In this document: piece after piece, positions 22,098 to 42,124 of the stretch
How the letters are laid out: each line of letters begins with the position of its first letter
Numbering within the stretch: the stretch's first letter is position 1
DNA from: an uncultured bacterium
GTDB taxonomy: Bacteria > Patescibacteriota > Patescibacteriia > CAIQCM01
Reading direction: 5' to 3'
DNA length: 64,000 nt
NCBI GenBank assembly: GCA_963708045.1
Contig: OY970181.1
Location: 451,740 to 515,739 of the forward strand
Notes under the pieces: model-generated
Database searches by the model: none
What the model saw: only the letters and a program-made list of their open reading frames with translations
What the model was told of the DNA's origin: nothing
Made by a program: the position numbers and the translations under genes

Positions 22098-22101
22098 AAT
22101 T

Positions 22102-22740: not shown

Positions 22741-22745
22741 TTTAA

Positions 22746-23397
22746 ATGGCCACTTTTAATAAAAATAAATTGATCGTCTTTGATCTAGACAAAACCATAA
22801 CTGCTGGTTATAGCTGGGCGCGCTTGAATTTTGGCCTAGGTATGACGCGAGACGAAGATATTAGTTTGTCTGAAGAATATTATCAAAAAAACAAATTCAC
22901 AGAATGGACTTCTCGGGTATTAGATATTTATAAAACGCGAAGTATTCCCACTAAGAAAAATGTTCAAAATATATTGAAGGACTTTGAATATACATCTGGC
23001 GCCGAAGAGTGTATAAAAAAATTAAAAAAAATGAATTTTAAAATTGCTATTATTTCTTCTGCGCCAGATGTTTTTGTTAAATTAGTTAGTAATAAACTAA
23101 AAATCAAGAATTTTCGTTTTAATAATACACTAATCTTTGGTGAAAACAATTTTTTAATTAATATTTCAACGGATGGGGAGGATAAGTATACAAAATTTGC
23201 ACATTTGAAAGACCTCTGCCATTTAAGAAAAAGTGGATATGGAAGAAACAGTTATTGTGGGTGACGGGGATAATGATGAATTGTTGTTTAAAGCCTCAAA
23301 ATATTCAATCACCTTCAATGATAGTAAGTTTAAAGATGTGGTTTGGAAGACAATCGACAGCCTTGCCGACCTACCTAAAATTTTGAAGAATAGATAG
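22746..23397 (+). pseudogene. HAD-superfamily phosphatase interrupted by a 1-nt frameshift in an A5 run (about 23222-23230)
   Basis: Motif I FDLDKTIT in frame 0 ends ...LRKSGYGRNSYCG*; the conserved motif IV ...VGDGDNDELLF continues in the +1 frame to a stop at 23397; removing one A from agaaaaagt restores a single ORF. Confidence 0.6.
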
Positions 23398-23527
23398 TTG
23401 TTTCTGATCCTGTAGTAATTTGTTAACGAAATAATTTGGACAAGCAGAGATCTAATCAGCGGCGAGCAACAAAACTCGCCGTCGTTTCTTATAGTTTAAT
23501 AATGAATATGCGCAGTTTTTAATATTA

Positions 23528-23588
23528 GTTTTGCATAATTTTTAGCCCTCCCATCTTTCCACGGTCGTGGAAAGATGGGAGGCGAGGG
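23528..23588 (+). repeat. 62-bp hairpin repeat family B, copy 1 (downstream of the PaaX-like gene)
   Basis: ttgcataatttttagccctcccatctttccacggtcgtggaaagatgggaggcgaggg; 13-bp palindromic stem cccatctttccac / gtggaaagatggg. Confidence 0.75.
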
Positions 23589-23609
23589 AAAAAGTGTTGC
23601 AATTAAAAA

Positions 23610-24179
23610 TTATTCATTTGGATTTAGTCCCAAGCCAAAATTAAATGCTAATTTATCATCGCCGTTGAATCTGTTGCAGACAAAATATATAACGCCGCGT
23701 CTAATATGATAATTTGTTTTAGCAAGTTCAATAATGTCTTCGCATGGGAATGGATATATCCAGACGCTCATTTGCAATTGAACCAATCCTAGGTTTTTAA
23801 AAAACGTTCTTATGTTGTCGCGAGAATATCTTTGTCGTTCAGGAACATCAAATGATATTATTCGCCACTTATTATCCCAACGTTTTTGTTGTTTAATTTT
23901 GATATTTTTCATCTCATATCGTAAAAGTTCTGCCTTACCTTTCGCGGTAAGTGAATAATAGGCGATTCCTTTTGTTCTAATTAATTTTATCCATCCGCGT
24001 TCGCGCAAACGACGTGTTGTATAATTTATCCGCCAGTGTGATTTAAAATCAGTTCGTTTAATTGAACAAGGATCAATAGCCTCGTCAATAAATGTTAAAA
24101 ATTTCTTTAAAGTCACGACTCCGTGATCTCCGATAATTTTTAATGCAGCGAATGTATTTTTTGAATATTTGTTTTGCAT
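23610..24179 (-). CDS. PaaX-like transcriptional regulator (short form: wHTH + PaaX middle-domain motif)
   Basis: WDNKWRIISFDVPERQRYSRDNIRTFFKNLGLVQLQMSVWIYP matches the PaaX signature W.G.W..v.yDiPe..R..Rd.lR..L...GF..Lq.SvW..P; N-terminal RERGWI winged-helix-like; start taken at the second Met. Confidence 0.5.
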   Translation of the reverse strand: MQNKYSKNTFAALKIIGDHGVVTLKKFLTFIDEAIDPCSIKRTDFKSHWRINYTTRRLRERGWIKLIRTKGIAYYSLTAKGKAELLRYEMKNIKIKQQKRWDNKWRIISFDVPERQRYSRDNIRTFFKNLGLVQLQMSVWIYPFPCEDIIELAKTNYHIRRGVIYFVCNRFNGDDKLAFNFGLGLNPNE

Positions 24180-25444: not shown

Positions 25445-26932
25445 ATGAAGACGAAGACACTCGCAATCGTAGTTTTGTTTTTGGCATCCTGCGGCGCGGA
25501 AATAAAGGTTAAAAAACCCGCAACAGAAACAACGACTGGTACGCGATCGGGGACAACGGTCACACAAAAGTTTGACGCTGGTGTTTCCACGCCCGCAACA
25601 AAATCAACACCAAACTCGGTCAGCGAATCAACGGGTGCCGTGATCACGGCGGCGCAGGTTTTGCGTCATCTCCCAGGGACGGCGGTCAAACTGGCAGGCG
25701 GGGGAACGGTATACTTGGTCGCGAGCGACGGCACACTGTCTTCGTTTTCCAACACGACTGCGCTGCACACCTCGGGATATTCGGACGCGATGGTCGCGAC
25801 AATTACGGCGGCGGAATTTTCTTGCTATCGCACGGGGAAAACGATTAAAAGCGGTCTGCCGGCGCCTGGCGAAGGACATCTGCGCGACGGGACGCTTGTT
25901 AAAGAGAATAACAAATCCACGGTTTATATTGTTTCCGATGGTATTGCTTGGTCAATTGTCAGTATGGATGTTTTTACGGCCGCCGGTTATAAAACAGAAT
26001 CAGTTGAAATCGTAAACGCCGGAACAATAAGAAATCTTGTTGATGAAGTTGGAAGTTGCGCCGACGGATTGGCTTGTTTGGATGCTGAATATTTAAGTTC
26101 GTGCGCTAAAGAAGAAATCGGCGACATTTCGCTTCCGCCGATTACGGTGGAAGACACGGGCGTCAAAACTTCGGCCACGACTTCGGTGGGAACGTCGGTC
26201 GCGACGCAAACCCGTACGACAATTGCGACTTCGGTGCAAACAGCAACAACCATGGCGACCGCGGCTCCAACTTCGGTCGCGACCTCGGTTGCGACAACAA
26301 TGCCGACTTCGGTTGCAACTTCAATTGCGACTTCGGTGCCTATACAAACACAAACCGTCGTAATGGTGCAAACAGCGACGCAAAATACAGTTCAAGTGAC
26401 GAGCGCCGCGACGGCGCTTGCGACAAGTACGCAAACGGCAAGTGTGGTTTCGGTTACTTCGGTCGCAACCTCAGCGCAAACGCAAACAACGACGCAGACA
26501 ACTACCATAACCGCTGTTGCAACAGGTACGCCAGCAACCTGGGTTTGGATGGGGGATGGGACGAAACTTTGTTTGAATGCGGTTTACTTTATGCCGCGTT
26601 CGGCAACACGGGCGGTGCTAAGAACGTGGACAGGACCGTATGTAACTGGCACAAATGCCGGACCGGTTACGGGCAAGGACGCACAAAATCGTTTTTGCTG
26701 GGACTTTGTCGGAATGCCAGCGGGAATTTACCGTCTTTGGGCCGATGTGCCGGCAACGACTTGCGCCAATACTGATTTTTGCGGCGATGATGGAATGGGT
26801 GGGGACGGCGCACAATATGGCACAGCGCCGAACGCTACGGCGACCGAACGTAAATGGCTCTACTGCCTAGACACAGGTTGCGATGGTTACGCTGTTTTTA
26901 ACGGAACAGCCTGGATTCCGGCCAATTCTTAA
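25445..26932 (+). CDS. hypothetical cell-surface lipoprotein with a Thr/Ser/Val/Ala tandem-repeat region
   Basis: MKTKTLAIVVLFLASCG lipobox; nucleotide tandem repeats acttcggt(c/t)gcgac encode TSVATSVATTMPTSVATSIATSVP... Confidence 0.6.
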   Translation: MKTKTLAIVVLFLASCGAEIKVKKPATETTTGTRSGTTVTQKFDAGVSTPATKSTPNSVSESTGAVITAAQVLRHLPGTAVKLAGGGTVYLVASDGTLSSFSNTTALHTSGYSDAMVATITAAEFSCYRTGKTIKSGLPAPGEGHLRDGTLVKENNKSTVYIVSDGIAWSIVSMDVFTAAGYKTESVEIVNAGTIRNLVDEVGSCADGLACLDAEYLSSCAKEEIGDISLPPITVEDTGVKTSATTSVGTSVATQTRTTIATSVQTATTMATAAPTSVATSVATTMPTSVATSIATSVPIQTQTVVMVQTATQNTVQVTSAATALATSTQTASVVSVTSVATSAQTQTTTQTTTITAVATGTPATWVWMGDGTKLCLNAVYFMPRSATRAVLRTWTGPYVTGTNAGPVTGKDAQNRFCWDFVGMPAGIYRLWADVPATTCANTDFCGDDGMGGDGAQYGTAPNATATERKWLYCLDTGCDGYAVFNGTAWIPANS

Positions 26933-27063
26933 CAATTTCGCAAACTTCCTTTTCAGCCGCTCCAATGCTATCGGGGCGGCTGATTTTCTTATATTTTTGC
27001 GGATAAATTTGGCCTATGAGCAAAATATTCTTTCTGCTATACTATATTAAATTACTGCGCACA

Positions 27064-29610
27064 ATGAAAAAGTTTTTAAACAATATAAAATTTTGGCTGG
27101 TCAGCCTTGGGGCGGTGACTCTGTCTTTTGCTTTTGCGACCGCGGCTAAGGCTGCAGGAGAAACCGTTACCTCTCAGGTTATTTCCGAAGGTATTGGTTG
27201 GGCGCTAAATAAATTAGTTATTTCTCCGCTCGTTGGCGTGCTTGGTAATGTCGCGCTAATTTTAATAGATTTTTTGGTTAAAGTCGTAAGTTATACCGGC
27301 TATATGACGTCGCCAGCGGTGGTGAACGGTTGGATTGTTGTGCGCGACGTTGCCAATATGTTCTTTGTGGCAATGTTTCTCGTCATCGCCATTGGTACTA
27401 TTGTTAACCCGGGAAAATTTCAGGGAATGCGCGCCATTGTCCGCCTGCTTCTTTATGCCATCTTTGTAAACTTTAGCAAAACCATCGCTGGACTTTGTAT
27501 TGACGCTTCCAACATTGTAATGCTCACTTTTGTTAATGGTTTTAAAGCCGCGGCTGGTGGTAATTTTGTGGACGCCCTTGGAATGCGCAGTTTGGTGACA
27601 ATAAACCCGAACGAAGCCGCTCCTTTAACCGGCCTTATTGGCGCGCAACTAGTTGGTTTAATAATGATGGTCATCATCGTTGTTTTGATCGGCATAATTT
27701 TGATCGCAATGGTAATGCGTATGATAACGCTGTGGTTTTTAATTGTCGTCTCACCGCTCGCTTTTGCAATGGGCGGAACAGAAATGACCAAGCCGCGTTA
27801 TGCCGAATGGTGGAAGCGTTTTTCCGCCCAGCTCACAACTGGTCCGCTGGTTGCCTTTTTCTTGTGGCTAACTTTGGCAACGGTTCAGCAACAGCCGGTC
27901 GGTGCCGATCTTGCTGGTACTGGCCCGGGCAGTATTTCGGGCGCGCAAACTGCTGGTGCTAAAGAAATCACTTCTTGCACCAGCGAATTTTGCAAACAGT
28001 CACAAATAATGCGTTTCGTGATCGCTGCGCTAATGCTCTTGGGCGGTCTTATGTTTGCCAAAGAATTTGAAGGTGTGGGTGGCGAGCTCGCTGGCGCGGC
28101 GTTAAACAAAGGAAAAGGCGCGATGAACTATGTTGGTAAGCGCGCACTCAAACTTGGCGCAATCGGCGTCGGCGTGGCGGCGGCGCCGGTTTTGGGCGGA
28201 GCTATTGCTGGTGGTTATTTGATGTCAAGAACCGAAACCGGAAAAGGTATTTTGGGTCGGGCGGGAACTGGCATAGGACGCGGAATATCGGCGGCGCAAA
28301 ATAAAAATATCGCCGCTCGGTGGGCAATGCGACTTACGGGAATTGGTGCGGCTGGCCGTTTAGCAACTTCGCTTGGCAATAAACAATTAGCCGCCGCCGA
28401 TAAAACGGCGCGTGACAGGATGCAGTATTACAGTCAAGATCAGGTTGAAGAAGTTGCTTCCAGTAGCCTTTCTAGTTACCCAGAAAAACGTGCCGCCGCG
28501 TTGCGTATTGCGAAGGATAAAGATTATCGCAATGCCAATATTAATGATGCTGATCCCGAAAAACGCGCCAAGGCCGAACGTCGGCTTAAAATATTGCAAC
28601 AGTCAATTAAAACGCTTTCCGAAATTAACGGCGACAAAGATGCGGATGATGCGATTAAGGAAGTTAAGGAAGTTCGTCCCGAAGCCTTGGCAATGGGGCC
28701 GAAACCGGTTAATTTTGCCGACTTTGGTCACGGGTTTAATATTCGCGAAGGCGCGTCAAAACTTCGCCTTGACCTAATGTCGGAAGCGAATAGAAATGAA
28801 TTTTTGCACAACCTTCGTCCTGACGATCTTAAAGAATTGTATAAGCGCACCAGCGCCGACGGCAAACGGGCGATTGATGCGTATAGAATGGGCTCGCTTC
28901 CAACAAGGCCGGAATTGGATACGGCAGTTAAGAGTGGTCAACTCACCGCAGATGATATAGCTGATCTACCCGCAGAACGTTATGTTCCAGGGAGGACGGA
29001 TGGCTCTACCGAAACCAATATTGATTTAGCAAGAAGTGTTTTGGAAAACGGCAAACCCGGGCAGATACGCGCATTTTTGTCGCGCGAGGATGCTCATCTT
29101 TTTGGCGAGGCTATGCGCGATGCTTTGCGGGGGAATTTAAATTTTTCAACTGGTGCTGGTTTTGATGGTCATACTGGAACAATGACCGACGACAATATGC
29201 GTTTGGCCGAGGGTGCGATTATCGCCAATATAGGAGCTAACGCACAAAGCCGGGAAAAGCTTTTGAAAGACACATACCGCGTTAAAGATGATGGAACTTT
29301 TGTTGATCCGAGAATGGAGTCGTCTTTTGTCGCGGCGTTAAGCTCGCCGCGAAAAGTTGACATGCTTATGAGTTTGCCGGAAAGTGCTTATAATGACGAA
29401 ACAAAAAAAATTACTCAGCACATAATAAGCAGTTTACAAGATCAAGATCTTGTTGATTTTGCTAGTCGTGCCACGACCGCCGAAGACGATCGCAGATTAA
29501 ATTGGTTGTTAAAGACGGTAGCTGCCGCTGGTAATGCTGGTAATGCAAGAGCGGCCTCTCTTGCACAAAATGCAAGCATACATCCCGACCTTGGGCATCA
29601 TATGTCGTAA
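27064..29610 (+). CDS. TrbL/VirB6-like type IV secretion inner-membrane protein with a long hydrophilic C-terminal extension
   Basis: Signal MKKFLNNIKFWLVSLGAVTLSFAFATAAKAAG, then 5-6 TM helices in the first about 290 aa; head of a cluster with a PrgI/VirB3-like protein and VirB4; track start 27016 is probably too early. Confidence 0.55.
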   Translation: MKKFLNNIKFWLVSLGAVTLSFAFATAAKAAGETVTSQVISEGIGWALNKLVISPLVGVLGNVALILIDFLVKVVSYTGYMTSPAVVNGWIVVRDVANMFFVAMFLVIAIGTIVNPGKFQGMRAIVRLLLYAIFVNFSKTIAGLCIDASNIVMLTFVNGFKAAAGGNFVDALGMRSLVTINPNEAAPLTGLIGAQLVGLIMMVIIVVLIGIILIAMVMRMITLWFLIVVSPLAFAMGGTEMTKPRYAEWWKRFSAQLTTGPLVAFFLWLTLATVQQQPVGADLAGTGPGSISGAQTAGAKEITSCTSEFCKQSQIMRFVIAALMLLGGLMFAKEFEGVGGELAGAALNKGKGAMNYVGKRALKLGAIGVGVAAAPVLGGAIAGGYLMSRTETGKGILGRAGTGIGRGISAAQNKNIAARWAMRLTGIGAAGRLATSLGNKQLAAADKTARDRMQYYSQDQVEEVASSSLSSYPEKRAAALRIAKDKDYRNANINDADPEKRAKAERRLKILQQSIKTLSEINGDKDADDAIKEVKEVRPEALAMGPKPVNFADFGHGFNIREGASKLRLDLMSEANRNEFLHNLRPDDLKELYKRTSADGKRAIDAYRMGSLPTRPELDTAVKSGQLTADDIADLPAERYVPGRTDGSTETNIDLARSVLENGKPGQIRAFLSREDAHLFGEAMRDALRGNLNFSTGAGFDGHTGTMTDDNMRLAEGAIIANIGANAQSREKLLKDTYRVKDDGTFVDPRMESSFVAALSSPRKVDMLMSLPESAYNDETKKITQHIISSLQDQDLVDFASRATTAEDDRRLNWLLKTVAAAGNAGNARAASLAQNASIHPDLGHHMS

Positions 29611-29617
29611 ATAATCC

Positions 29618-31426
29618 ATGCCAATACCTGACCAGATAAAAAGTTTTATCGTCGCACCTGACAATATAAAAAAGCGTATAGATTTAATGCGCCGTTATTC
29701 GGTATCGTTAGAGGCCAGTATTAAATTTACGAAAACCATCAATCGTCTTTATGAAAAAGAAATCGGATTAAATGATTTAATCCCTGAACTTACTAAAACG
29801 ACAGGACTACCCGAAGACACAGTTAAAAAAATAATTTTGGAATTTGCCGGCCATGAGTTTTTGCCGGCCTCGTCATATTTGGGAAATGTTAGCGAATACA
29901 TAAAAAGTATGGGTGGTGATCCCGCGAGTTATCCCGCGACGAGAATCACGATTCGTTCGCTTACGCCCGAAGAGGTTGTGTCTGAAGTTTTACATGAAAA
30001 TACCTTGCCGCTTGCGGCGCACCTAGAAGGGCGGTTACGCGAAATTTTGGAATCATTTGTGCGTGGCGTACGCAGTAAAGACGAAACAATCCATCGCTTG
30101 ACGCGCGCGGAAAAAATCGGCGGCGTGGCTTTTCTTGACGCCGATGCCGAGAAAATCGTAAATATTTTGGCCGAAAAAACCGCCAGCGTTAAAATTGATT
30201 TTTCCGCGCCGGTTGCGGCCGAGGCGAAACCTCGACCAGAAGAGGTTCCGACGCCGGTTTTGGCCGAGGTTTCGCCTCGGCCGTCCGATCAAGCTGCCGT
30301 GCCGCAAATGTTGCCGGCGGTGTCGGTATTGTCAACGATGACCGTTAGACCGCCAGAAGTAAAACGCGAAATAAGTATTTCCCAAGCTAATATTGATTTT
30401 GAACGCCGTCTTTTTGGAACGGCTGTACGCATCGCAGGCGGCGTTGGCGTCCCTGTGCCAAAAGAACTTAGCGATCGGTTGATGGCAATTATCGTCGCGT
30501 TTCTAAAAGAAGCACGCAAGTCGGGCGACACCTTAGCAACCTTAAAAAAGACCACCACCTCGGGGGGAATGGGTTTTGACGATGTCATCGCGCAAAAAAC
30601 GATTGGTCTTTTAAATGACGAACTCAAAAAGATTCAGTTGGAAAACGCCATGGTGATGAAAAAAGAAAAAGAAGATTTTTCTAAAAAACAAAACGCCGAG
30701 ATGCTGGAAAGAGAAAACGCCCGTCAAAATGCGGAGATTGCCGAGCGTGATAAATTATACTCAAAACTTTCTGGTAAAAATCCATTTGCTTTCAAAATTG
30801 CGCCGAAAACTGAAAACGCCGCGCGTTCAATAACGCTGGCGAAAATTGTGCCGCCGCCGGTTCCCCCGGTTGCTCCTTCTGCTCCCGAGGCGAAACCTCG
30901 GCAGGAAGAGGTTTTGACCGAACAAGTAGCGCCTCAAGTTGTGCCAGAAGTAGTTTTGGCTCGCCCGGTTGCGCCATTGGCTCGGGTTGTGCCGCCGCCG
31001 GTTTCGCCCGTACCAAGTCCTTCGTTGCCGCCGCCGGTTTTTGTCCCGCCACCCGTTGCGCCACTTCCAAAAATGCAGGATATTCGCAAAACCGCTTTGC
31101 ATCTTACGGGTCCGGCTGAAGAACTCCGCAATATGAATTTGCAAGATTTTCGTCGGCTTTCTTCTAATTCAGAAGAAGCTTGCCGAAAATTAAATGACAA
31201 AGTGCTTCTTTTGGACGAACAATCTTATGCCGATCGCGCCGAAGGCGTAAAAGCTTGGCAAGAATCGCCGCTTTACAAGCTTTATCTTTCAATTTTGAAT
31301 GAATCGTTTGGTGGCGGCGGGGGAGTGTCGGCAGTGATTCGTGCGCGTGAAACAAGTAACAAGGAATCGCTCACCGAAGCCGAAGTTCGTGCTATAATGG
31401 TATTGAATCGCAAACTAAAGAGTTAA
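29618..31426 (+). CDS. hypothetical protein with Pro-rich repeats (possible T4SS structural component)
   Basis: 602 aa; repeated EAKPRPEEV and PPPV stretches, also visible as nucleotide repeats at about 30225 and 30886; lies between the VirB6-like and VirB3-like genes. Confidence 0.5.
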   Translation: MPIPDQIKSFIVAPDNIKKRIDLMRRYSVSLEASIKFTKTINRLYEKEIGLNDLIPELTKTTGLPEDTVKKIILEFAGHEFLPASSYLGNVSEYIKSMGGDPASYPATRITIRSLTPEEVVSEVLHENTLPLAAHLEGRLREILESFVRGVRSKDETIHRLTRAEKIGGVAFLDADAEKIVNILAEKTASVKIDFSAPVAAEAKPRPEEVPTPVLAEVSPRPSDQAAVPQMLPAVSVLSTMTVRPPEVKREISISQANIDFERRLFGTAVRIAGGVGVPVPKELSDRLMAIIVAFLKEARKSGDTLATLKKTTTSGGMGFDDVIAQKTIGLLNDELKKIQLENAMVMKKEKEDFSKKQNAEMLERENARQNAEIAERDKLYSKLSGKNPFAFKIAPKTENAARSITLAKIVPPPVPPVAPSAPEAKPRQEEVLTEQVAPQVVPEVVLARPVAPLARVVPPPVSPVPSPSLPPPVFVPPPVAPLPKMQDIRKTALHLTGPAEELRNMNLQDFRRLSSNSEEACRKLNDKVLLLDEQSYADRAEGVKAWQESPLYKLYLSILNESFGGGGGVSAVIRARETSNKESLTEAEVRAIMVLNRKLKS

Positions 31427-31493
31427 ATGAAATAATTAAGAAGTTTGCTATTAATCTTCTAACGTCTAATCTCTAACGTCTAATCTCTAAAAA

Positions 31494-31931
31494 ATGCCCC
31501 AACAGTTCGTTGTCCCGCAATTTATTGATGTTGAAGATAAAATCATCGGGCCGATTACCACCCGTCAGTTTTTAATTTTGCTCGCAACCTCGCTTATCTT
31601 ATTTATAATGTACGCGATTTTGGCGATGGCTTATTTTATCGGTTTTGGTTTGCCAATTTTGGTCGTCGGAATTGTGTTTTCTTTTGCAAAAATTAACGGC
31701 CAGCCTTTTCATTATTTTTTTCTTAACGTAATTCAAACTAGCCGCAAACCAAAATTACGCGTTTGGTATAAAGAAGAAACCAATGTTGAGCTAATGGCGC
31801 GCATTTCCGCGCCGCCCGCGCCACCCTCTGTTCCGACATTAACCAAAGAAAGAGCAACCAGTTCGCGTTTACAAGAATTAACGCTTATCGCCAATACCGG
31901 CGGCGTTTATCGCCCCGAGGATTGGGTGTGA
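31494..31931 (+). CDS. VirB3/PrgI/TcpE-like small T4SS membrane protein
   Basis: FIDVEDKIIGPITTRQFLILLATSLILFIMYAI fits the PrgI/TcpE pattern E.KI.Gl..RQf plus two TM helices; immediately upstream of VirB4. Confidence 0.5.
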   Translation: MPQQFVVPQFIDVEDKIIGPITTRQFLILLATSLILFIMYAILAMAYFIGFGLPILVVGIVFSFAKINGQPFHYFFLNVIQTSRKPKLRVWYKEETNVELMARISAPPAPPSVPTLTKERATSSRLQELTLIANTGGVYRPEDWV

Positions 31932-31996
31932 ACAATATGAATCATGTTCCACGCACCATATACCACCAATGATGAGCGGTTAATGGTTCATGATTC

Positions 31997-32701
31997 ATGT
32001 TTCATGAAAATATGCCCGAAATGCAATCGGCAAAACTTTCAAGAGCCAAACCCGGACCGTCCACTGTCCGCTTTCTTGATATTTCCGAAATTCGTGACGA
32101 CGTCGTTGTGCTAAAAGACGGCACAGTGCGCGCTGTGCTCGCTGTTTCTTCAATCAACTTCGCGCTTAAGGCGGAAAACGAGCAAGAGGCGATTATTTCT
32201 GCCTATGTCGGTTTTCTAAATTTAATTGACCACCCGGTTCAGGTAATGATTCAGTCGCGCAAGTTTAATATTGAGCCGTACTTAAACGAACTTAACGCTC
32301 GCGAAAAAATAATTAGCAACGAGCTACTCCGTGCCCAGCTTCGCGATTATCGCGCTTTCGTTGAACAACTTGTTAAAAGCGGCGAGGCGATGAGTAAAAA
32401 ATTCTTCGTGATCGTGCCGTATGACCCAATTACTGAAAAGAAAAAGAATTTTTGGACGCGAATGGGCGAAGTTCTTTCCCCGGCCGCGGCGATTAAATTA
32501 AAAGAAAAGCAGTTTCAAGAAAGAAAAGAAGGGTTGATTCAACGGGTCACAAACGTGATCGGCGCGCTTTCGGCGATGAGTCTTACAGTAACGATGCTAG
32601 ACACACAGACGCTGATTGAATTGTATTACAGTTTTTATAATCCGGTCGCGTCCGAAACGCAAAAACTTCCTGACGCTAACGAAGTCCGCATAGAAAACTA
32701 A
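31997..32701 (+). CDS. VirB4/TrbE N-terminal domain encoded as a separate ORF
   Basis: 234 aa; a TAA stop lies 1 nt before the start of the VirB4 ATPase ORF, which is in a different frame; the combined 857 aa equals a full-length Gram-positive-type VirB4. Confidence 0.5.
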   Translation: MFHENMPEMQSAKLSRAKPGPSTVRFLDISEIRDDVVVLKDGTVRAVLAVSSINFALKAENEQEAIISAYVGFLNLIDHPVQVMIQSRKFNIEPYLNELNAREKIISNELLRAQLRDYRAFVEQLVKSGEAMSKKFFVIVPYDPITEKKKNFWTRMGEVLSPAAAIKLKEKQFQERKEGLIQRVTNVIGALSAMSLTVTMLDTQTLIELYYSFYNPVASETQKLPDANEVRIEN

Positions 32702-32702
32702 T

Positions 32703-34574
32703 ATGGCCTTGTTTGGAAAAAAGAAAACCACACCAAAAAAGCAAACCCCCGACGAACTCGCGATCGTGGCGGCGGAAAAAGTTACCCTGGAAGAAGAGCG
32801 CGTTTATCGCCGCGGCGCTGTTTCTATCCGCGACCTGATCGCGCCGGCATCGTTTGAAGTTAACCCGTCGTTTGTTCGTTTGGGCGATCTTTATGCGGCG
32901 ACGGTTTTCGTCGTTACTTATCCGCGTTACGTTTCGGTCGGCTGGTCATATCCGATTATCAGTATGAATCGGTCGCTGGATGTTTCAATGTTTTTTTATC
33001 CTGTTAAAGCCGAAGTTATTTTGAAACAATTAAAAAATAAGGTCGGCGCGCTTGAAGCCCAGATTATTATGGACGCGGAAAAAGGCGCGGCGCGCGACCC
33101 GCTTCGCGAAACGGCATTGCGCGACATTGAAAAATTGCGCGACGACCTCACCCAGGGAGTAGAGCATTTTTTCCAATACGCCTTCTACGTCACCGCTTAC
33201 GCGCGCACGACCGACGACCTAGACAAAATTGTCCAAGAAATTGATTCGGTTTTTGGTGCTAAACTAATTTTTTCAAAACGCGTTTTTTATCAATCGGAAC
33301 AGGGCTTTAATTCCTGCCTGCCGCTTGGAAACGACGAGCTTCAGATTACCTTTAACATGAATAGCTCGCCCATTGCCTCGTCCTTTCCGTTTATTTGCGC
33401 CGATCTGACCTCAAACTCCGGCGTGCTTTACGGCCTTAACAAACACAACAGCTCGCTCGTCGTCTTTGACCGGTTCTCAATGCAAAACCCCAATATGGTC
33501 GTCTTTGCCACGTCCGGCGCGGGAAAATCATTTGCTGTCAAACTGGAAATTTTACGGTCACTCATGCTTGGCACGGACGTTATCGTGATTGACCCAGAAA
33601 TGGAATACAAACATTTGTCCGACGCTGTCGGCGGCACCTACATTAGTATTTCGCTTTCGTCCGACTCCAAGATCAATCCTTTTGACCTGCCGCGGCCAAT
33701 GGATCAAACGCAAACGGCCGAAGATATTATTAGGAGCGCGGTCATTACCGTCAAAGGTTTGCTCCGTATTATGCTTGGTGCGATCACAACGGCCGAAGAT
33801 TCAATTTTGGACCGGGCACTACTTGAAGCATATGCCAAGAAAGACATTGTCCCGGGCATTAATCCGCTTGAGCTCGGACAATACGAACCGCCGATTCTTC
33901 AAGATCTTGAAGAAGTGCTTTCGGGAATGGTTGGCACGACCGATCTTGTTGAACGGTTAAAGAAATATACCGACGGAACTTTTGCTGGGCTTTTAAATTC
34001 GCCGACAACGGTTGATATGAAAAACCAGTTCGTGATTTTTTCCGTGCGCGATCTTGAAGACGAACTTCGTCCGATGGCGATTTACACGATTGTTAGCTAT
34101 ATTTGGAACGTCGTTCGCTCGGTCAGCAAAAAGCGCATTCTCGTGATTGACGAAGCGTGGTGGCTAATGCAACACGAGGATTCGGCCAAATTTATTTTCG
34201 CGCTCGTTAAGCGCTGTCGCAAATATTACCTTGGCGTTACGACGATTACGCAGGACGTTAATGACTTTTTAACTTCTACCTACGGGCAGGCGATTATCAA
34301 CAACTCGGCTATTCAGCTTCTGCTAAAGCAGTCGCCAGCGGCAATTGACCTTATTCAAAAGACGTTTATGCTCACCGACACGGAAAAATATTTGCTTTTA
34401 GAGTCCGATGTCGGTAATGGAATTTTCTTTGCCGGTTCGTCGCACGTTGGAATTCAAGTTATTTCTTCGTACACCGAAGAACAGCTTATTACGACCGACC
34501 CGCGCCAACTGCTTGAAATTGAAGAGGAGAAAAAACGTTTTGCCGAAGAAAATGCGCCCCCCGCGCAACAATAA
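32703..34574 (+). CDS. virB4: VirB4-family type IV secretion ATPase (C-terminal ATPase part)
   Basis: Walker A VVFATSGAGKSF; Walker B/DEAW box RILVIDEAWWLM; typical VirB4 length and organisation. Confidence 0.8.
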   Translation: MALFGKKKTTPKKQTPDELAIVAAEKVTLEEERVYRRGAVSIRDLIAPASFEVNPSFVRLGDLYAATVFVVTYPRYVSVGWSYPIISMNRSLDVSMFFYPVKAEVILKQLKNKVGALEAQIIMDAEKGAARDPLRETALRDIEKLRDDLTQGVEHFFQYAFYVTAYARTTDDLDKIVQEIDSVFGAKLIFSKRVFYQSEQGFNSCLPLGNDELQITFNMNSSPIASSFPFICADLTSNSGVLYGLNKHNSSLVVFDRFSMQNPNMVVFATSGAGKSFAVKLEILRSLMLGTDVIVIDPEMEYKHLSDAVGGTYISISLSSDSKINPFDLPRPMDQTQTAEDIIRSAVITVKGLLRIMLGAITTAEDSILDRALLEAYAKKDIVPGINPLELGQYEPPILQDLEEVLSGMVGTTDLVERLKKYTDGTFAGLLNSPTTVDMKNQFVIFSVRDLEDELRPMAIYTIVSYIWNVVRSVSKKRILVIDEAWWLMQHEDSAKFIFALVKRCRKYYLGVTTITQDVNDFLTSTYGQAIINNSAIQLLLKQSPAAIDLIQKTFMLTDTEKYLLLESDVGNGIFFAGSSHVGIQVISSYTEEQLITTDPRQLLEIEEEKKRFAEENAPPAQQ

Positions 34575-34578
34575 TAAT

Positions 34579-35154
34579 ATGGATAGACGCACTAAATTTG
34601 TTTTTCTTTTTGGAGCCGGCGCGATCGCGATCGCAGCGATTCTAGTTTTTATTTTTTGGCCGAGTAGTACCCCCACCCCTGCGCCGGGTGCGAATACAAA
34701 CGCGGGCACAGGATCACTTTCGCCAAGTACGACGACAAACGTAAACGCACCCTCCGCCCCGCGCCCGATGACTGATATTGAAAAAGCCGCGACCCAGCCC
34801 AAAACCATCGCCATTACTTTTGCCGAACGTTTTGATAGTTATTCCAGTCAAAGCAATTTGAAAAATTTGGACGATCTCGCGCCGCTTGTTACCGCCGAGG
34901 CGTATAAATTTATTGATACCGATTATCGCGCCAAGCTTTTAAAAACGTTTCCCCCAAAAAATGCCTATTTGGGCGTCTCCGCCAAAGTAATCAGCGTTCG
35001 TCAACTTTCTTTTGACGGAACGACCGCTGATTTTGAATTAAGTATGCAAGAAGTTTGGTCAGGAACGGTGAGCGAAACAAAATATACGACGCTTGAAATT
35101 AAATTAATAAAAGACGAGGCAAGTTGGTTGGTAAATTTCTTCAAATGGAAATAA
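34579..35154 (+). CDS. hypothetical membrane-anchored protein
   Basis: ATG 34579, 4 nt after the VirB4 stop; TM helix FVFLFGAGAIAIAAILVFIFW; Pro/Thr-rich linker. Confidence 0.5.
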   Translation: MDRRTKFVFLFGAGAIAIAAILVFIFWPSSTPTPAPGANTNAGTGSLSPSTTTNVNAPSAPRPMTDIEKAATQPKTIAITFAERFDSYSSQSNLKNLDDLAPLVTAEAYKFIDTDYRAKLLKTFPPKNAYLGVSAKVISVRQLSFDGTTADFELSMQEVWSGTVSETKYTTLEIKLIKDEASWLVNFFKWK

Positions 35155-35861
35155 ACACCTTCTCAAGCCGAAGAGGAGCAACACAAATTCTCCGCGCCGC
35201 GCTTGATGCTGTTCTTCCGGTCTATTGCGTTGGTTGTAAAGAGGAAGGGAAGATTTTATGTGCAAATTGTCGGAGCGCGATTACTCGCGCTCCGCTTTTT
35301 ATTTGTAGCGCCTGCGGGCTTTTTTCGCCGGCTGGAACAACACATCCCGATTGCCAAACAAAAACGCCGCTCTCGTCGCTGATCGCGCCTTACCCGTATG
35401 CCAATCCGCTTGTCCGTAATCTGATAAAAAATTTTAAATACCGCGGCGCGGGGGAGAGTAAAAAAATTATTGCAGATCTTTCCGCCGCGTCGGCAAACGC
35501 CCTGCGCTTGTTATTTTCAGAAAACGCGATTGTCGTCGCGATGCCGCTTCATATTCGTCGTGAGCGCGAGCGCGGTTTTAATCAGTCGGAGGTTATTGGC
35601 CGAGCGGTTGCTACCGCGCTTGGGTTTAAATTTGACAGTGAAATTATTTGTCGGACGCGGCGGACTGACGAGCAGGCGCGCTTGCCGTTTCACGAGCGCG
35701 CGGAAAATTGTGAAAATGCTTTTCGTGCTAAGCCGACAAGCGGAACAATTATTTTGGTTGACGACGTCGTCACAACCGGCGCGACAATGAAAGCCGCCGC
35801 CCTTGCTTTAAAATCCGCCGGCGCCGAGCGCGTTGTTGGTTTCGCCCTCACGCACGGATGA
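35145..35861 (+). CDS. comFC: ComF family protein (competence, phosphoribosyltransferase domain)
   Basis: N-terminal Cys4 zinc ribbon YCVGCKEEGKILCANC...CSACG; C-terminal PRTase motif ILVDDVVTTGATM. Confidence 0.75.
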   Translation: MEINTFSSRRGATQILRAALDAVLPVYCVGCKEEGKILCANCRSAITRAPLFICSACGLFSPAGTTHPDCQTKTPLSSLIAPYPYANPLVRNLIKNFKYRGAGESKKIIADLSAASANALRLLFSENAIVVAMPLHIRRERERGFNQSEVIGRAVATALGFKFDSEIICRTRRTDEQARLPFHERAENCENAFRAKPTSGTIILVDDVVTTGATMKAAALALKSAGAERVVGFALTHG

Positions 35862-36050: not shown

Positions 36051-37094
36051 CTACTTCCACTGATAATGCGTCCATGCCCATTTGGCGAGGGCGTCGGCGT
36101 CGCTCATGCTTGTGGCGAGTTTGGGTTCGCCAAAAATTACCAAAATCAGTTCGCGTGGCGCGCCTTTGGCGCTCTTTAGTCCGACGGCGAGGTTCCAGCC
36201 GACCTCGGCGCCAAGATAGCCGGTTTTGCTCGCAGTAACGAGGATGTCATCATATTCGGGCAAGGTAAGAAGCGCGTCGCTGTTTTTAACAACTAATTTT
36301 TTTCGGCTCGGAAGTTTATATAAAGTGCGTTTCGCGGTTGTGGTAAAACGGCGAATCGCGTCTTTTCCAAAGATGGACTGGGCGAGCGCGGCAAATTCCC
36401 GCGGCGTGGAAATATTATTTTCATTAAGGCCAGTGGGGTCGGCAAAAATGGTGCGGTTTAGCCCAAGCACTTGAGCCGCCGCGTTCATCGCGGTAACAAA
36501 TTTTTCACGCGAAAGTCCGGTTGCATCGGCAAGGGCGTTTGCCGCGTCGTTAGCCGAAGGAAGCAGGGCTGCGTAAAAAAGATCGTTCACGCTAAATTTG
36601 GTTCCGGCGGGCACACCAAGCCGCGAGCCGCCGACTTGATCGTCCGCGGTAATTGTTTGGATTTTTGTAAGCGGCACCTTGCGTGAAAGAACAATGTTGG
36701 CCGTCATCAATTTGGTTAGCGAGGCAATAGCGCGGGGCGCATTGGCGTTTTTTTCGGACAAAATTAACCCAGTCGCTTTATCAATAATGATATAGCTAGC
36801 TGCGGAAACGTCGGGTGCTGGGGTTGTGTTAATAGGTGTTGGAATTTTTCCGGTCGGTTTGTAGAAAAGCAATTTTTTGTCTTCACGCCAGCCATATTGT
36901 TTTGCCCAATCCTCCAAACCAAGCGCCGAAGTATTTGCTTCGGGTTTTGTTAAATATGTTTTTTCGTCAAAAAGCGTTTGTAGGTCGGCGCGCTCGGCGT
37001 AAAGTGATTTAAGATACGGCCCAACTGCCGCCTTGGTGGTAAAGGGGATAATCGCCGCAAAAAATATTAATATAGCGAAGATCGTTTGGCGCAT
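36051..37094 (-). CDS. dacA: D-alanyl-D-alanine carboxypeptidase (S11 / PBP5-like)
   Basis: Signal MRQTIFAILIFFAAIIPFTT; SxxK active-site motif ASLTK; start taken at an internal Met of the track ORF. Confidence 0.7.
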   Translation of the reverse strand: MRQTIFAILIFFAAIIPFTTKAAVGPYLKSLYAERADLQTLFDEKTYLTKPEANTSALGLEDWAKQYGWREDKKLLFYKPTGKIPTPINTTPAPDVSAASYIIIDKATGLILSEKNANAPRAIASLTKLMTANIVLSRKVPLTKIQTITADDQVGGSRLGVPAGTKFSVNDLFYAALLPSANDAANALADATGLSREKFVTAMNAAAQVLGLNRTIFADPTGLNENNISTPREFAALAQSIFGKDAIRRFTTTAKRTLYKLPSRKKLVVKNSDALLTLPEYDDILVTASKTGYLGAEVGWNLAVGLKSAKGAPRELILVIFGEPKLATSMSDADALAKWAWTHYQWK

Positions 37095-37199
37095 AGAATA
37101 AAAGTATACTACAAAAATCTTGTTTGCGCGCTCAAATAAAATTAACAAACAAAAAATCAGCCGCTGGCTGATTTTTTTGGATTAATAAATATTATAGGG

Positions 37200-39207: not shown

Positions 39208-41019
39208 CTATATAAACAACCGCGCTAACCGTAACTCTTCAAAAGAATAATCTTCGCCTAGTATTTCGCGAACCATTGTTAGTGTCGTATTGTTTGGGTT
39301 TTTAAAAGCGTCAGCGATTTTATTAAGACGCTCGGTGGATGGTTTAAGATAATCAATATTTATGGATGGGTCGTCAAGAAAGAGTTTCTCAATATGGCCG
39401 ACAATGGTTCCGGGCGAGAGACCGCGTTTTAAACTAATCTCGTTCACTGACATTTTTTGCAACAAATATTTTTTTGTTTCATCATACGTTGAACCAGCAC
39501 ACATAAAGACGTTTGGTTTTTGTCCGTCGCGCGCGGCGGCGTAGCGCCGGATGGTCGTCATAAATAACTCGCCGTATTGGGAAAGCTTTTGTTCGCCGAC
39601 GCCGCTAATGTCCAAAAAGGCGTCATTAGTTTGTGGCAAAGAAGCGGCGATTGCTTTAAGTGTTCTGTCGCCAAAAATAATGTATGGCGGAACGCCCAAA
39701 CGGCGCGCCTCTTGCATACGGATACTGCGCAATTCTTCAAAAAGCGCCGGATCGTAATCGCTTACGATCGCCGTCGTCCGCGTTTTTCTTGACCGATCGT
39801 CGTCATAAATTTTCTCCGACATCACAAGCGGCGCAAATTTTATACAGCCGTCACAATTTCCGCAATTATCAAGCAGATATTTTTCGTGAAAATACTCAAG
39901 CAAATACCGGCGGCGACAGCTTTTTAAATATCCGTAATCAATAACCTGTGCCAATTTTAGCTGCGCCTGACGGCGTTCGGCGTCGTCGGTAATACTGTTG
40001 ATGAAATATTCCTGCTTAAATTTGTCGGCAAAAGAAAATAACAGAACGCAGCGCGCGGGCAAACCGTCGCGCCCAGCGCGGCCGGTTTCTTGATAATAAC
40101 CTTCAATGGATTTTGGTAGGCCGTGATGGATAACCAAACGCACATCGGGTTTGTCTATACCCATACCAAAAGCAATCGTCGCGACCATAATATTTATTTC
40201 GTCTTTAATAAATCGCTCCTGATTTTCTTTGCGCGTTTCCGGAGCCAGCCCGGCATGATACGCCGCCGCCTTAAACCCGTGTCGTTCCAAATTTTCAACT
40301 AACTTTTCCGTATCGTTTCTGGAAAAACAATAAATGATCGCGCTTTTGTCGTGGTAATCGCGCAAAAGCGCCAAGACCAAGGCAAGCGAATCTTTCTTTG
40401 GCAAAACTTCGTAACTTAAGTTGGGGCGATTAAAACTTGAAATAAAAATCTGCGGATCTTTAAGTCCAAGTTGTTTAATTATATCTTCCCGTACTTTGGG
40501 AGTGGCGGTGGCGGTTAGCGCGATAATTGGAACTTTTGGAAACAACAAACGCAAGGAACGCAAATTTCTATAATCCGGGCGGAAATCATGTCCCCACTCG
40601 GAGATGCAGTGCGCTTCGTCAATGGCAAACAAACTAATCTTTAATGCGCGGAGAAAATCTTCAAATCCGGTCGCCGGAAATCTTTCCGGCGCTACATATA
40701 AGATTTTCAACCCGCCGTTTAAGGCGCGTCCCATCACTTCCCGAATATCTTCGGGTGACAGCGTGCTGTTGATGAGCGCCGCGGGAACGCCGTTTGCCGA
40801 GAGCGCATCAACCTGATCTTTCATTAAGGAAATGAGCGGCGAAACAACTACGGTCAGACCTTCTTGTATTATGGCTGGCAGCTGAAAACAAAGCGACTTG
40901 CCCCCGCCCGTTGGCATAAGGACGACGTTATCCCGCCCAGCCAGGACATTGTTGATTATGTCTTGTTGGAGCGGGCGGAACTCATCGTACCCAAAATATT
41001 TTTTAAGTGTTTTAAACAT
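39208..41019 (-). CDS. recQ: ATP-dependent DNA helicase RecQ
   Basis: FGYDEFRPLQQDIIN, PTGGGKSLCFQLPA, DEAHCISEWGHDFRPDY, zinc-binding Cys cluster and a C-terminal HRDC-like region. Confidence 0.9.
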   Translation of the reverse strand: MFKTLKKYFGYDEFRPLQQDIINNVLAGRDNVVLMPTGGGKSLCFQLPAIIQEGLTVVVSPLISLMKDQVDALSANGVPAALINSTLSPEDIREVMGRALNGGLKILYVAPERFPATGFEDFLRALKISLFAIDEAHCISEWGHDFRPDYRNLRSLRLLFPKVPIIALTATATPKVREDIIKQLGLKDPQIFISSFNRPNLSYEVLPKKDSLALVLALLRDYHDKSAIIYCFSRNDTEKLVENLERHGFKAAAYHAGLAPETRKENQERFIKDEINIMVATIAFGMGIDKPDVRLVIHHGLPKSIEGYYQETGRAGRDGLPARCVLLFSFADKFKQEYFINSITDDAERRQAQLKLAQVIDYGYLKSCRRRYLLEYFHEKYLLDNCGNCDGCIKFAPLVMSEKIYDDDRSRKTRTTAIVSDYDPALFEELRSIRMQEARRLGVPPYIIFGDRTLKAIAASLPQTNDAFLDISGVGEQKLSQYGELFMTTIRRYAAARDGQKPNVFMCAGSTYDETKKYLLQKMSVNEISLKRGLSPGTIVGHIEKLFLDDPSINIDYLKPSTERLNKIADAFKNPNNTTLTMVREILGEDYSFEELRLARLFI

Positions 41020-42060: not shown

Positions 42061-42124
42061 TCCGATGAAATTCCTAAAACGCGAACCACTTCCCTAAGTG
42101 GTTCGCGTCTTTCTTTTTTTCTTT

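What the first reader, a model, noticed from the sequence alone, without database searches (positions are those of the whole stretch)
27016..35154. Type IV secretion-like cluster: VirB6/TrbL-like, Pro-rich protein, VirB3/PrgI-like, and a VirB4 ATPase split into two ORFs
Consecutive same-strand genes encode a signal-peptide TrbL/VirB6-like polytopic protein with a 570-aa hydrophilic tail, a 602-aa Pro-rich protein, a PrgI/TcpE-like two-TM protein and a VirB4 ATPase (Walker A VVFATSGAGKSF, DEAW box). The VirB4 N-terminal domain (31997-32701) is a separate ORF ending in TAA one nucleotide before the ATPase ORF, in a different frame. No relaxase or VirD4 coupling protein is present, and the nearby comFC and TfoX-domain genes point towards DNA uptake or host interaction rather than conjugation. 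In a small episymbiont-type genome such a system is a candidate host-interaction or DNA-acquisition machine.
Basis: partly seen in the sequence, partly recalled or inferred. Interest (0 to 1): 0.65.

Follow-up and report, generated by a model that had tools for sequence, protein, structure and literature searches.

The report
Patescibacterial type IV secretion operon
This is a seven-gene chromosomal type IV secretion operon of the kind already described in 2025 for ultra-small Patescibacteria; the "split" VirB4 motor is the normal two-gene state in this lineage, so the locus is real but not new.

Summary
Window 27016-35861 (+) holds a tightly packed operon:
- VirB6/TrbL-like polytopic protein
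- 602-aa orphan protein
- PrgI/VirB3
- 234-aa protein homologous to the VirB4 N-terminus (TrsD-like)
- VirB4 ATPase
- 191-aa bitopic protein that I predict has a VirB8-like NTF2 fold
- ComFC

The VirB4 "split" is not an error or a pseudogene. The two genes are separate in 77 of 77 related Patescibacteria loci, with varying frames and spacers. In five relatives, 4.9-7.4 kb of other genes lie between them.

No relaxase or coupling protein was found in the window. Gene order, including ComFC, is conserved across the 80 relatives examined, out of 580 confirmed matches.

Nearly all of this is published in Quinonero-Coronel et al. 2025 (PMC12102498). That paper describes the Patescibacteria VirB4 clade, TrsD next to virB4, PrgI, VirB6, the absence of a relaxase, and comF/recG linkage in class ABY1.

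Small additions from this work:
- The gene between virB4 and comFC is conserved in 75/75 loci and is VirB8-like by predicted fold.
- The 602-aa protein belongs to a large family (2857 representatives at 50% identity) with no Pfam or PDB match.

Function is inferred: a VirB4-powered envelope translocon. DNA import handed to ComFC is the leading specific hypothesis.

The parts
27016..29610 (+). Extended VirB6/TrbL-like polytopic membrane protein. It is 864 aa from ATG 27016. The likely true start is ATG 27064, which gives a signal peptide ending ...ATAAKA. The C-terminal tail of about 465 aa is hydrophilic and poorly conserved.
   Evidence: At least 7 hydrophobic segments lie between residues 26 and 398. 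The protein itself has no Pfam hit and only a weak NCBIfam hit to a MMCAP2_0566 conjugal transfer protein, E 0.015. Homologues carry precomputed PF19590/PF04610, and 6/21 hit Pfam TrbL, best 1.6e-6. The gene is present upstream of virB4 in 58/80 relatives, with a median length of 1001 aa.
29618..31426 (+). 602-aa conserved orphan protein with no TM segment. It has three helical modules (1-193; 256-385, which includes a helix of about 60 residues; 499-601) joined by two Pro-rich disordered linkers.
   Evidence: No Pfam or NCBIfam hit. The AlphaFold2 model has mean pLDDT 73.5, with modules at 85-95. No fold match in PDB or BFVD and no PDB sequence match. The family has 2857 representatives at E<=1e-3. 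The gene is present in 70/80 related loci, just upstream of prgI.
31494..31931 (+). PrgI/VirB3-like protein of 145 aa with two TM segments.
   Evidence: Pfam PrgI, E 7.1e-10, 39.7 bits against a cut-off of 27. TM segments at 21-39 and 42-60. Present in 72/80 loci.
31997..32701 (+). TrsD-like protein, a free-standing homologue of the first ~170 residues of VirB4. It is 234 aa from ATG 31997; the public gene call starts at 32012 and gives 229 aa.
   Evidence: NCBIfam hits: VirB4_plasma profile positions 104-243/894, E 1.8e-7; TrsD/TraD, E 4e-6; CD1110 positions 12-108/752. Of 61 orthologues, 61 hit VirB4_plasma, 59 hit TrsD and 50 hit CD1110. Concatenated with the ATPase ORF, it aligns as one stretch to VirB4_plasma positions 105-891/894. 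It is a separate ORF in 77/77 loci. A precomputed PF26593 TraC-like hit is attached to the public gene call.
32703..34574 (+). VirB4-family ATPase of 623 aa. It lacks the extreme N-terminal segment.
   Evidence: NCBIfam CD1110-family VirB4, 351.3 bits against a cut-off of 325, covering profile positions 171-734/752. Pfam P-loop_TraG, E 1.5e-32. PDB 4AG5 (VirB4 C-terminal domain), E 4.4e-45. Walker A and B motifs are present. It is 69-76% identical to the 80 best of 580 confirmed matches in the genome collection, all Patescibacteria or unnamed MAGs.
34579..35154 (+). 191-aa bitopic protein: N-terminal TM helix, Pro/Asn-rich linker, then an NTF2-like (VirB8-like) domain.
   Evidence: AlphaFold2 gives pLDDT of roughly 80-94 over most of the domain. 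The model shows helices followed by a 4-stranded antiparallel sheet. Foldseek against PDB: PrgL VirB8 domain 7AED 2.3e-4, IcmL-like 5CNL 2.6e-4, TraM 3WZ3, TcpC 3UB1, CagV 6IQT. Other NTF2 folds such as ARC6 and RsgI9 score equally well. The profile-to-PDB hit to PrgL is weak, E 1.7. A homologous ORF sits between virB4 and comFC in 75/75 loci.
35124..35861 (+). ComFC (ComF family: double zinc ribbon plus phosphoribosyltransferase domain). Its start, TTG 35124 or ATG 35145, overlaps the stop of the preceding gene.
   Evidence: NCBIfam GntX E 9.2e-29 and comF TIGR00201 E 4.4e-27. Pfam DZR_2 plus Pribosyltran. It follows the VirB8-like gene in 75 of the 80 loci; a comFC match is present in 76.

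Best explanation
This is the chromosomal, relaxase-less type IV secretion system typical of Patescibacteria, in the gene order seen in the Uhrbacteria/Magasanikbacteria (ABY1-type) relatives. It is related to the monoderm MPF_FATA conjugation machinery.

Seven co-oriented genes are separated by -31 to +80 nt and encode the parts of a cytoplasmic-membrane translocon:
- an extended VirB6-like channel protein
- PrgI/VirB3
- a VirB4 motor made from two polypeptides (a TrsD-like N-terminal piece plus the ATPase body)
- a VirB8-like bitopic protein
- a cytoplasmic 602-aa protein of unknown role
- ComFC

What is shown: the homologies, the conserved two-gene state of VirB4, the conserved gene order, and the lack of a relaxase or coupling protein in the window.

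What is inferred:
- The TrsD-like protein and PrgI dock the VirB4 hexamer to the membrane, as the VirB4 N-terminal domain and VirB3 do in solved systems.
- The machine moves macromolecules across the envelope at the contact with a host cell rather than conjugating DNA.
- Because comFC is co-transcribed in nearly all relatives, my preferred specific mechanism is import of nucleic acid that is handed to ComFC on the cytoplasmic side. I give this about 0.35. A secretion or pilus-type host-interaction conduit gets about 0.45 as the broader alternative.
For: - VirB4: CD1110 family, above the curated cut-off.
- PrgI: above Pfam's gathering score.
- TrsD-like protein: 61/61 orthologues hit the VirB4 N-terminal region, and the two ORFs are collinear with a full-length VirB4 model.
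- The two genes are separate in 77/77 loci, with variable frames and spacers and with kb-scale inserts in several relatives.
- VirB6 link: through homologues that hit Pfam TrbL.
- VirB8-like fold.
- Synteny: B6-P602-PrgI-TrsD-VirB4-B8like-ComFC across 80 Patescibacteria loci.
- No relaxase or T4CP domain in any of about 57 window ORFs scanned; the genes of the focal region went through both Pfam and NCBIfam, most flanking ORFs through Pfam alone.
- GC content of the operon (0.47-0.49) equals the surrounding genome.
- The published description of the same system, with TrsD and comF/recG linkage in ABY1, is PMC12102498. Essentiality of the T4SS genes in a cultured saccharibacterium is summarised in PMC12857230.
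Against: - The window's VirB6-like protein does not itself reach any TrbL/VirB6 model threshold.
- The VirB8-like call rests on a generic NTF2 fold in a predicted model; non-T4SS NTF2 proteins score equally well.
- No VirB2-like pilin, VirB1-like hydrolase or T4CP lies in or next to the operon, so the apparatus may be incomplete or have parts elsewhere in the 1.19-Mb genome.
- For the import idea: in Southlakia epibionticum the T4SS is essential while comEC is dispensable, and competence there depends on type IV pili (PMC12857230).
- The comFC adjacency is limited to one class and could be historical.
Confidence: 0.85

Rival explanations
1. The VirB4 gene is broken by a frameshift or assembly error, so the cluster is a decaying or mis-assembled T4SS remnant.
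For: The stop and the next start are one base apart in different frames, which is how a single-base indel would look.
Against: The two ORFs are separate in 77/77 related loci (0 fused). They occur in all frame combinations, with spacers from -89 to +133 nt, and 1.2-7.4 kb of other genes lie between them in six relatives. The N-terminal protein has 29 invariant columns across 61 species. The same protein (TrsD) is known as a separate gene in pGO1-type systems and in 2272 Patescibacteria proteins (PMC12102498).
Confidence: 0.02
2. The cluster is the transfer module of an integrated conjugative element and mediates conjugative DNA export.
For: The best VirB4 model is a conjugation ATPase of the CD1110/CTn2 type. 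PrgI and TrsD come from Gram-positive conjugative plasmids.
Against: No relaxase, T4CP, integrase or repeat boundaries were found in the window. GC content equals the flanks. The same gene order sits beside housekeeping comFC in the 80 relatives examined, where VirB4 is 69-76% identical; 580 matches were confirmed in all. That pattern indicates vertical inheritance, not mobility. PMC12102498 finds relaxases in only 103 Patescibacteria genomes.
Confidence: 0.04
3. The system is a host-interaction conduit (effector secretion, pilus or adhesion, or nutrient uptake) unrelated to ComFC, and the comFC adjacency is incidental.
For: In Southlakia epibionticum the T4SS genes (including TrsD, PrgI and VirB6 homologues) are essential for epibiotic growth, whereas comEC is not (PMC12102498; PMC12857230). 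The comFC linkage is reported only for class ABY1.
Against: comFC overlaps the stop of the preceding T4SS gene in the window. It follows the VirB8-like gene directly in 75 of the 80 loci, despite deep divergence of the neighbours (25-55% identity) and rearrangements elsewhere in the cluster. No VirB2-like pilin genes lie near this operon.
Confidence: 0.45

Closest known systems
Patescibacteria-clade T4SS (Quinonero-Coronel et al. 2025, PMC12102498; functional data from Southlakia epibionticum ML1, Wang et al. 2023, as cited there)
   Same: Chromosomal and relaxase-less. VirB4 is of the clade sister to MPF_FATA. TrsD is encoded next to virB4, and PrgI/VirB3 and VirB6 are present. comF and recG lie nearby, as reported for class ABY1; recG is at 61674-63701 in this window.
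   Different: This locus has no VirB2-like pilin array and no VirB1-like hydrolase beside virB4. The paper detected VirB8 homologues only rarely, whereas the VirB8-like gene here is present in 75/75 relatives. The 602-aa family is not named in that work, as far as I could read.
pGO1/pSK41 Trs conjugation system of staphylococci (MPF_FATA subclass with TrsC-TrsD-TrsE)
   Same: A small VirB3-like protein, then a separate TrsD protein homologous to the VirB4 N-terminus, then the VirB4 ATPase, in that order.
   Different: The plasmid system has a relaxase, a T4CP and a lytic transglycosylase and conjugates DNA. The TrsD model score here is far below the family cut-off (26.7 against 200 bits). The best VirB4 model is the CTn2/CD1110 type, not pGO1.
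Helicobacter pylori ComB DNA-uptake T4SS
   Same: A T4SS without VirD4, VirB11 or a relaxase, with VirB4 as the only ATPase. It works with the ComEC/ComFC competence proteins (PMC12857230; the ComFC requirement is from my own knowledge).
   Different: ComB is a diderm system with VirB2, VirB7, VirB9 and VirB10, and it is not encoded with comFC. No DNA-uptake evidence exists for the present system.
Archaeal Ced DNA-import system (CedA/CedB)
   Same: A VirB4/HerA-like ATPase used for import rather than export, with no relaxase.
   Different: There is only local P-loop similarity (CedB model 45 bits against a cut-off of 700), and no CedA-like protein was identified.

Membership tests
Patescibacteria-clade T4SS (MPF_FATA-related) | VirB4-family ATPase with intact Walker A and B motifs, most similar to monoderm (FATA) VirB4s | tested here: met
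   CD1110 family, 351 bits against a cut-off of 325. PDB 4AG5, E 4.4e-45. Motifs ATSGAGKS and ILVIDEAW are present.
Patescibacteria-clade T4SS (MPF_FATA-related) | Separate TrsD-like protein homologous to the VirB4 N-terminus, encoded next to virB4 | tested here: met
   (homology and collinearity). (separate in 77/77 loci).
Patescibacteria-clade T4SS (MPF_FATA-related) | VirB3/PrgI-like small two-TM protein | tested here: met
   Pfam PrgI, 39.7 bits against a cut-off of 27. Two TM segments.
Patescibacteria-clade T4SS (MPF_FATA-related) | VirB6/TrbL-like polytopic membrane protein | tested here: inconclusive
   The window protein has no direct hit. Support is transitive: 6/21 homologues hit Pfam TrbL, best 1.6e-6, and hits carry precomputed PF04610/PF19590. 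Its polytopic topology fits.
Patescibacteria-clade T4SS (MPF_FATA-related) | VirB8-like bitopic protein (NTF2-like domain) | tested here: inconclusive
   The predicted fold is NTF2-like, with PrgL, CagV, TcpC and IcmL-like proteins among the top PDB matches. Other NTF2 proteins score equally, and the sequence-profile hit to PrgL is only E 1.7.
Patescibacteria-clade T4SS (MPF_FATA-related) | No relaxase near virB4; chromosomal, vertically conserved context | tested here: met
   No relaxase or T4CP domain in the scanned ORFs of the window. Synteny holds in 80 Patescibacteria loci. GC content equals the flanks. The rest of the genome was not available.
Patescibacteria-clade T4SS (MPF_FATA-related) | VirB2-like pilin genes near virB4 (frequent in the clade, not universal) | tested here: not met
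   No small two-TM ORF other than PrgI was found between 15 and 45 kb. No HMM for pilins was run.
Conjugative MPF_FATA T4SS (pGO1, pCF10, CTn2 types) | Relaxase and type IV coupling protein (VirD4/TcpA) associated with the transfer genes | tested here: not met
   None in the 64-kb window.
ComB-type or Ced-type DNA-import T4SS | Demonstrated dependence of DNA uptake on the VirB4-like ATPase | not testable with these tools
   Only the operonic link to comFC and the nearby TfoX_N, RecQ and RecG genes bear on this.
ComB-type or Ced-type DNA-import T4SS | Family-specific subunits (ComB2/7/9/10, or CedA/CedB) | tested here: not met
   CedB model 45 bits against a cut-off of 700, and CedD 23 bits against 600. 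No VirB9 or VirB10 hits in the cluster.

The most novel reading that the evidence does not exclude
In ABY1-type Patescibacteria the T4SS has been rebuilt into a DNA or nucleic-acid import machine that is co-transcribed with ComFC. In this reading the widespread, unannotated 602-aa cytoplasmic protein (three helical modules on Pro-rich tethers) acts as a new substrate-handling subunit in place of the missing coupling protein.
Probability: 0.2. Interest if true: 0.7.

Novelty: new member of a known kind. Interest (0 to 1): 0.28.

Why it matters
Patescibacteria make up a large share of bacterial diversity and depend on host cells. Their T4SS is the only one so far shown to be essential for the bacterium that carries it (Southlakia epibionticum; PMC12857230). 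Its substrate and direction of transport are unknown.

This locus adds no new kind of system, but it does three useful things:
- It shows that the two-gene VirB4 is native and should not be annotated as a pseudogene.
- It assigns a VirB8-like candidate that is conserved in the examined relatives, where the published sequence searches reported few VirB8 homologues.
- It flags a large orphan family (the 602-aa protein) and the tight ComFC coupling as concrete handles for testing whether these machines import nucleic acids.

Tried and rejected
- **TrsD-like profile against PDB sequences:** no hit at E<=1.
- **VirB6-like profile against PDB sequences:** only low-complexity or coiled-coil noise.
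- **602-aa protein:** nothing from Pfam or NCBIfam on the protein itself, nor from Pfam on 35 distant relatives. Nothing from a PDB sequence profile, Foldseek against PDB or Foldseek against BFVD.
- **Promoter and terminator scan:** counts were close to the shuffled controls (within about 1.5 sd), so operon boundaries rest on spacing and strand only.
- **Genes inserted between trsD and virB4 in high-GC relatives:** no Pfam hits except a 23S_rRNA_IVP protein in L029, and no homologue in the window.
- **Upstream 495-aa lipoprotein (25445-26932):** considered as part of the system and rejected. It matches only 2/80 related loci.
- **Recoding (programmed frameshift or readthrough) to fuse the two VirB4 ORFs:** rejected, because frames and spacers are not conserved.
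- **Source organism:** it could not be named. The proteins are on a 1,188,223-bp NCBI/ENA contig that carries no names.
Full report
**What is there**

Between 27016 and 35861 the + strand carries seven ORFs with very short spacers:

| From | To | Spacer (nt) |
|---|---|---|
| 864-aa ORF | 602-aa ORF | 7 |
| 602-aa ORF | 145-aa ORF | 67 |
| 145-aa ORF | 234-aa ORF | 65-80 |
| 234-aa ORF | 623-aa ORF | 1 |
| 623-aa ORF | 191-aa ORF | 4 |
| 191-aa ORF | comFC | overlap of 10-31 |

The next gene, a D-Ala-D-Ala carboxypeptidase at 36051-37148, is on the other strand. GC content of the block (0.47-0.49) matches the flanks.

**Gene identities**

- **623-aa protein.** It is a VirB4-family ATPase. It scores 351 bits on NCBIfam CD1110 (cut-off 325) over profile positions 171-734 of 752, and E 1.5e-32 on Pfam P-loop_TraG. 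The closest solved structure by sequence is the VirB4 C-terminal domain 4AG5, E 4.4e-45. Walker A (ATSGAGKS) and Walker B (ILVIDEAW) are present and conserved in relatives.
- **145-aa protein.** It is PrgI/VirB3-like: Pfam 39.7 bits against a cut-off of 27, with two TM segments.
- **864-aa protein.** It has a signal-peptide-like N-terminus, most plausibly starting at Met17, and at least seven hydrophobic segments up to residue 398, followed by a hydrophilic tail of about 465 aa. It has no Pfam hit of its own. However, 6 of its 21 homologues hit Pfam TrbL (best 1.6e-6), and several carry precomputed PF04610/PF19590. I therefore call it an extended VirB6-like protein on indirect evidence.
- **Last gene.** It is ComFC, with a double zinc ribbon plus a PRTase domain (ComF/GntX models at E 1e-27 to 1e-29).

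**The "split" VirB4**

The 234-aa ORF matches the N-terminal parts of full-length VirB4 models:
- VirB4_plasma, positions 104-243 of 894, E 1.8e-7
- CD1110, positions 12-108 of 752
- the TrsD/TraD family, E 4e-6

Of 61 orthologues, 61 hit VirB4_plasma, 59 hit TrsD and 50 hit CD1110. When the two ORFs are joined artificially, they align as one stretch to VirB4_plasma positions 105-891 of 894. The score is 288.8 bits, about the sum of the separate scores, so they are collinear with a full-length VirB4.

A scan of one genome per species confirmed 580 matches, and I fetched the best 80. All are Patescibacteria or unnamed MAGs: Uhr-, Magasanik-, Falkow- and Parcubacteria, plus MAGs mislabelled as "uncultured Gammaproteobacteria". 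Their VirB4 is 69-76% identical to the window's.

In all 77 loci where both parts were seen, they are separate ORFs and never fused. They occur in every frame combination, and most spacers are between -89 and +133 nt. Larger inserts separate the two genes in some relatives:
- In L025, L028, L049, L065 and L071, 4.9-7.4 kb holding several unrelated genes lies between them.
- L043 has 1.2 kb.
- L029 has a 23S_rRNA_IVP gene.

The N-terminal protein has 29 invariant columns across 61 sequences. The split is therefore the native, selected state. It is not an error, a pseudogene or a recoding site.

**Synteny**

tblastn of the window proteins against the 80 loci gave this conserved order: VirB6-like, 602-aa family, PrgI, TrsD-like, VirB4, 191-aa family, ComFC. 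Hits per gene were 58, 70, 72, 77, 80, 48 and 76 respectively; many of the misses are truncated contigs.

The 191-aa family is more conserved than the tblastn count suggests. In all 75 loci where comFC follows virB4, one ORF of 179-240 aa with a single N-terminal TM segment lies between them. All 75 match the family profile at E<=1e-18.

The upstream 495-aa lipoprotein is not conserved with the cluster (2/80 loci).

**The two unannotated proteins**

*191-aa protein.* The AlphaFold2 model is built on 10 sequences, and pLDDT is roughly 80-94 over most of the domain. It shows a TM helix, a disordered Pro/Asn-rich linker, then helices packed on a four-stranded antiparallel sheet.

Foldseek against the PDB returns NTF2-like folds. 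These include VirB8-type T4SS proteins: the PrgL VirB8 domain 7AED (2.3e-4), IcmL-like 5CNL, TraM 3WZ3, TcpC 3UB1, CagV 6IQT and OrfG 8S7L. ARC6, RsgI9 and CaMKII hub domains score at similar levels.

Fold, bitopic topology and position directly after virB4 together make it a VirB8-like candidate. Sequence-level homology is not established (PrgL E 1.7).

*602-aa protein.* It has no TM segment. It folds into three confident helical modules separated by two disordered Pro-rich linkers. Modules 1 and 2 appear, by eye in the alignment, to share a repeated motif of the form R-L...R...T...L.R...GG.G.

It has no match in Pfam, NCBIfam, PDB (by sequence or fold) or BFVD. The family is nevertheless large: 2857 representatives at 50% identity with E<=1e-3, of which 1491 are at E<=1e-30.

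**What is absent**

No relaxase, VirD4/TcpA coupling protein, VirB11, VirB9/10 or integrase domain was found in about 57 window ORFs. The genes of the focal region were run against both Pfam and NCBIfam; most flanking ORFs were run against Pfam alone.

No small two-TM pilin-like ORF lies near the operon. The nearest peptidoglycan hydrolase candidate, an M23 peptidase at 3752-4798, is 22 kb away.

The window also holds RecQ (39208-41019), a TfoX_N protein (42265-42657) and RecG (61674-63701).

**Comparison with the literature**

Quinonero-Coronel et al. 2025 (PMC12102498) describe the same system. Their main points are:
- The Patescibacteria VirB4 clade is sister to MPF_FATA.
- PrgI/VirB3 and VirB6 homologues are present.
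- VirB8 is rare and is found mostly in class ABY1.
- Relaxases are absent.
- In ABY1, T4SS loci commonly include comF, recG and radA.

The 2025 FEMS review (PMC12857230) summarises three further points. The T4SS and type IV pili are essential in S. epibionticum, while comEC is not. "Extended VirB6" proteins with large hydrophilic domains are known. ComB of H. pylori is a VirD4-less DNA-uptake T4SS.

The increments from this work are the universal VirB8-like gene, the size and orphan status of the 602-aa family, and the demonstration that trsD and virB4 can be pulled apart by kilobases.

**Mechanism**

*Shown:* homology, conserved gene order, and the absence of conjugation-specific genes in the window.

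*Inferred from established T4SS structural knowledge:*
- VirB4 hexamers dock on the membrane through their N-terminal domain together with VirB3 and VirB8 tails.
- The gene order PrgI-TrsD-VirB4-VirB8-like is collinear with that module.
- The TrsD-like protein therefore most likely supplies the membrane/VirB3-docking part of the motor as a separate chain.

*Substrate and direction are unknown.* I rate the options as follows:
- A host-interaction conduit unrelated to ComFC: about 0.45.
- Nucleic-acid import coupled to ComFC: about 0.35. The support is translational coupling in the window, 75/75 positional conservation, the ComB precedent, and nearby TfoX, RecQ and RecG genes.
- Conjugation: about 0.04.
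- A broken gene: about 0.02.

**Verdict**

This is a real, well-conserved, biologically important system. It is a further member of a published kind, so its interest as a discovery is low.

Noticed in passing
L025:2215-9656, L028:4341-9905, L049:3670-9836, L065:195-6912, L071:1132-5990 (also L043:8685-9896 and L029:9396-9881): In a high-GC group of relatives, 4.9-7.4 kb lies between the trsD-like gene and virB4. The insert has GC 0.61-0.65 against 0.55-0.58 for the whole locus and holds about four weakly conserved unknown genes. L043 has one 316-aa ORF there, and L029 has a 23S_rRNA_IVP four-helix-bundle gene. There are no Pfam hits otherwise and no homologue in the window.
   Followed up: partly
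window 10817-19393 (+): A giant 2858-aa ORF whose only Pfam hit is a CBM_4_9 carbohydrate-binding domain. It is preceded by a 220-aa ORF with bacterial TSP3 repeats (10152-10814). It is probably a large surface protein of the kind common in Patescibacteria.
   Followed up: no
window 20000-24000 and 42000-56000: GC content drops to 0.34-0.37 at 20-24 kb (GTP cyclohydrolase II-like, HAD phosphatase and PaaX-like genes) and to 0.34-0.42 at 42-56 kb, against 0.44-0.49 in most other parts of the window. These may be acquired segments. Many ORFs there have no family hit.
   Followed up: no
window 35271-35304 (+): A strong hairpin (10-bp stem with 8 G-C pairs) followed by a T-run lies inside the zinc-ribbon coding part of comFC. 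It may be a chance feature of the coding sequence or an internal attenuator.
   Followed up: no
window 25445-26932 (+): A 495-aa predicted lipoprotein (lipobox LASC) with a long Thr/Ser/Val/Ala-rich region and a Cys-rich C-terminal domain lies directly upstream of the operon. It has no family hit and is not conserved beside the T4SS in relatives (2/80).
   Followed up: partly
window 39208-41019 (-), 42265-42657 (-), 61674-63701 (+): RecQ helicase, a TfoX_N-domain protein and RecG helicase lie within 30 kb of the T4SS-comFC operon. This matches the recombination and competence neighbourhood reported for class ABY1.
   Followed up: partly
related loci L001-L080, between the VirB6-like gene and the 602-aa family gene: VirB6-like proteins in relatives have a median length of 1001 aa (range 187-1547), with poorly conserved tails. 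In about half of the loci they directly abut the 602-aa family gene, as in the window. In the rest, 1-4 kb of extra sequence intervenes and the 602-like ORF is shorter (about 350-400 aa). This suggests its N-terminal modules may be a separate gene there.
   Followed up: partly
window 55505-56551 (+) and 59290-60732 (+): Two ORFs each carry only the PEP-utilising enzyme mobile domain at their C-terminus, with no recognisable kinase domains.
   Followed up: no
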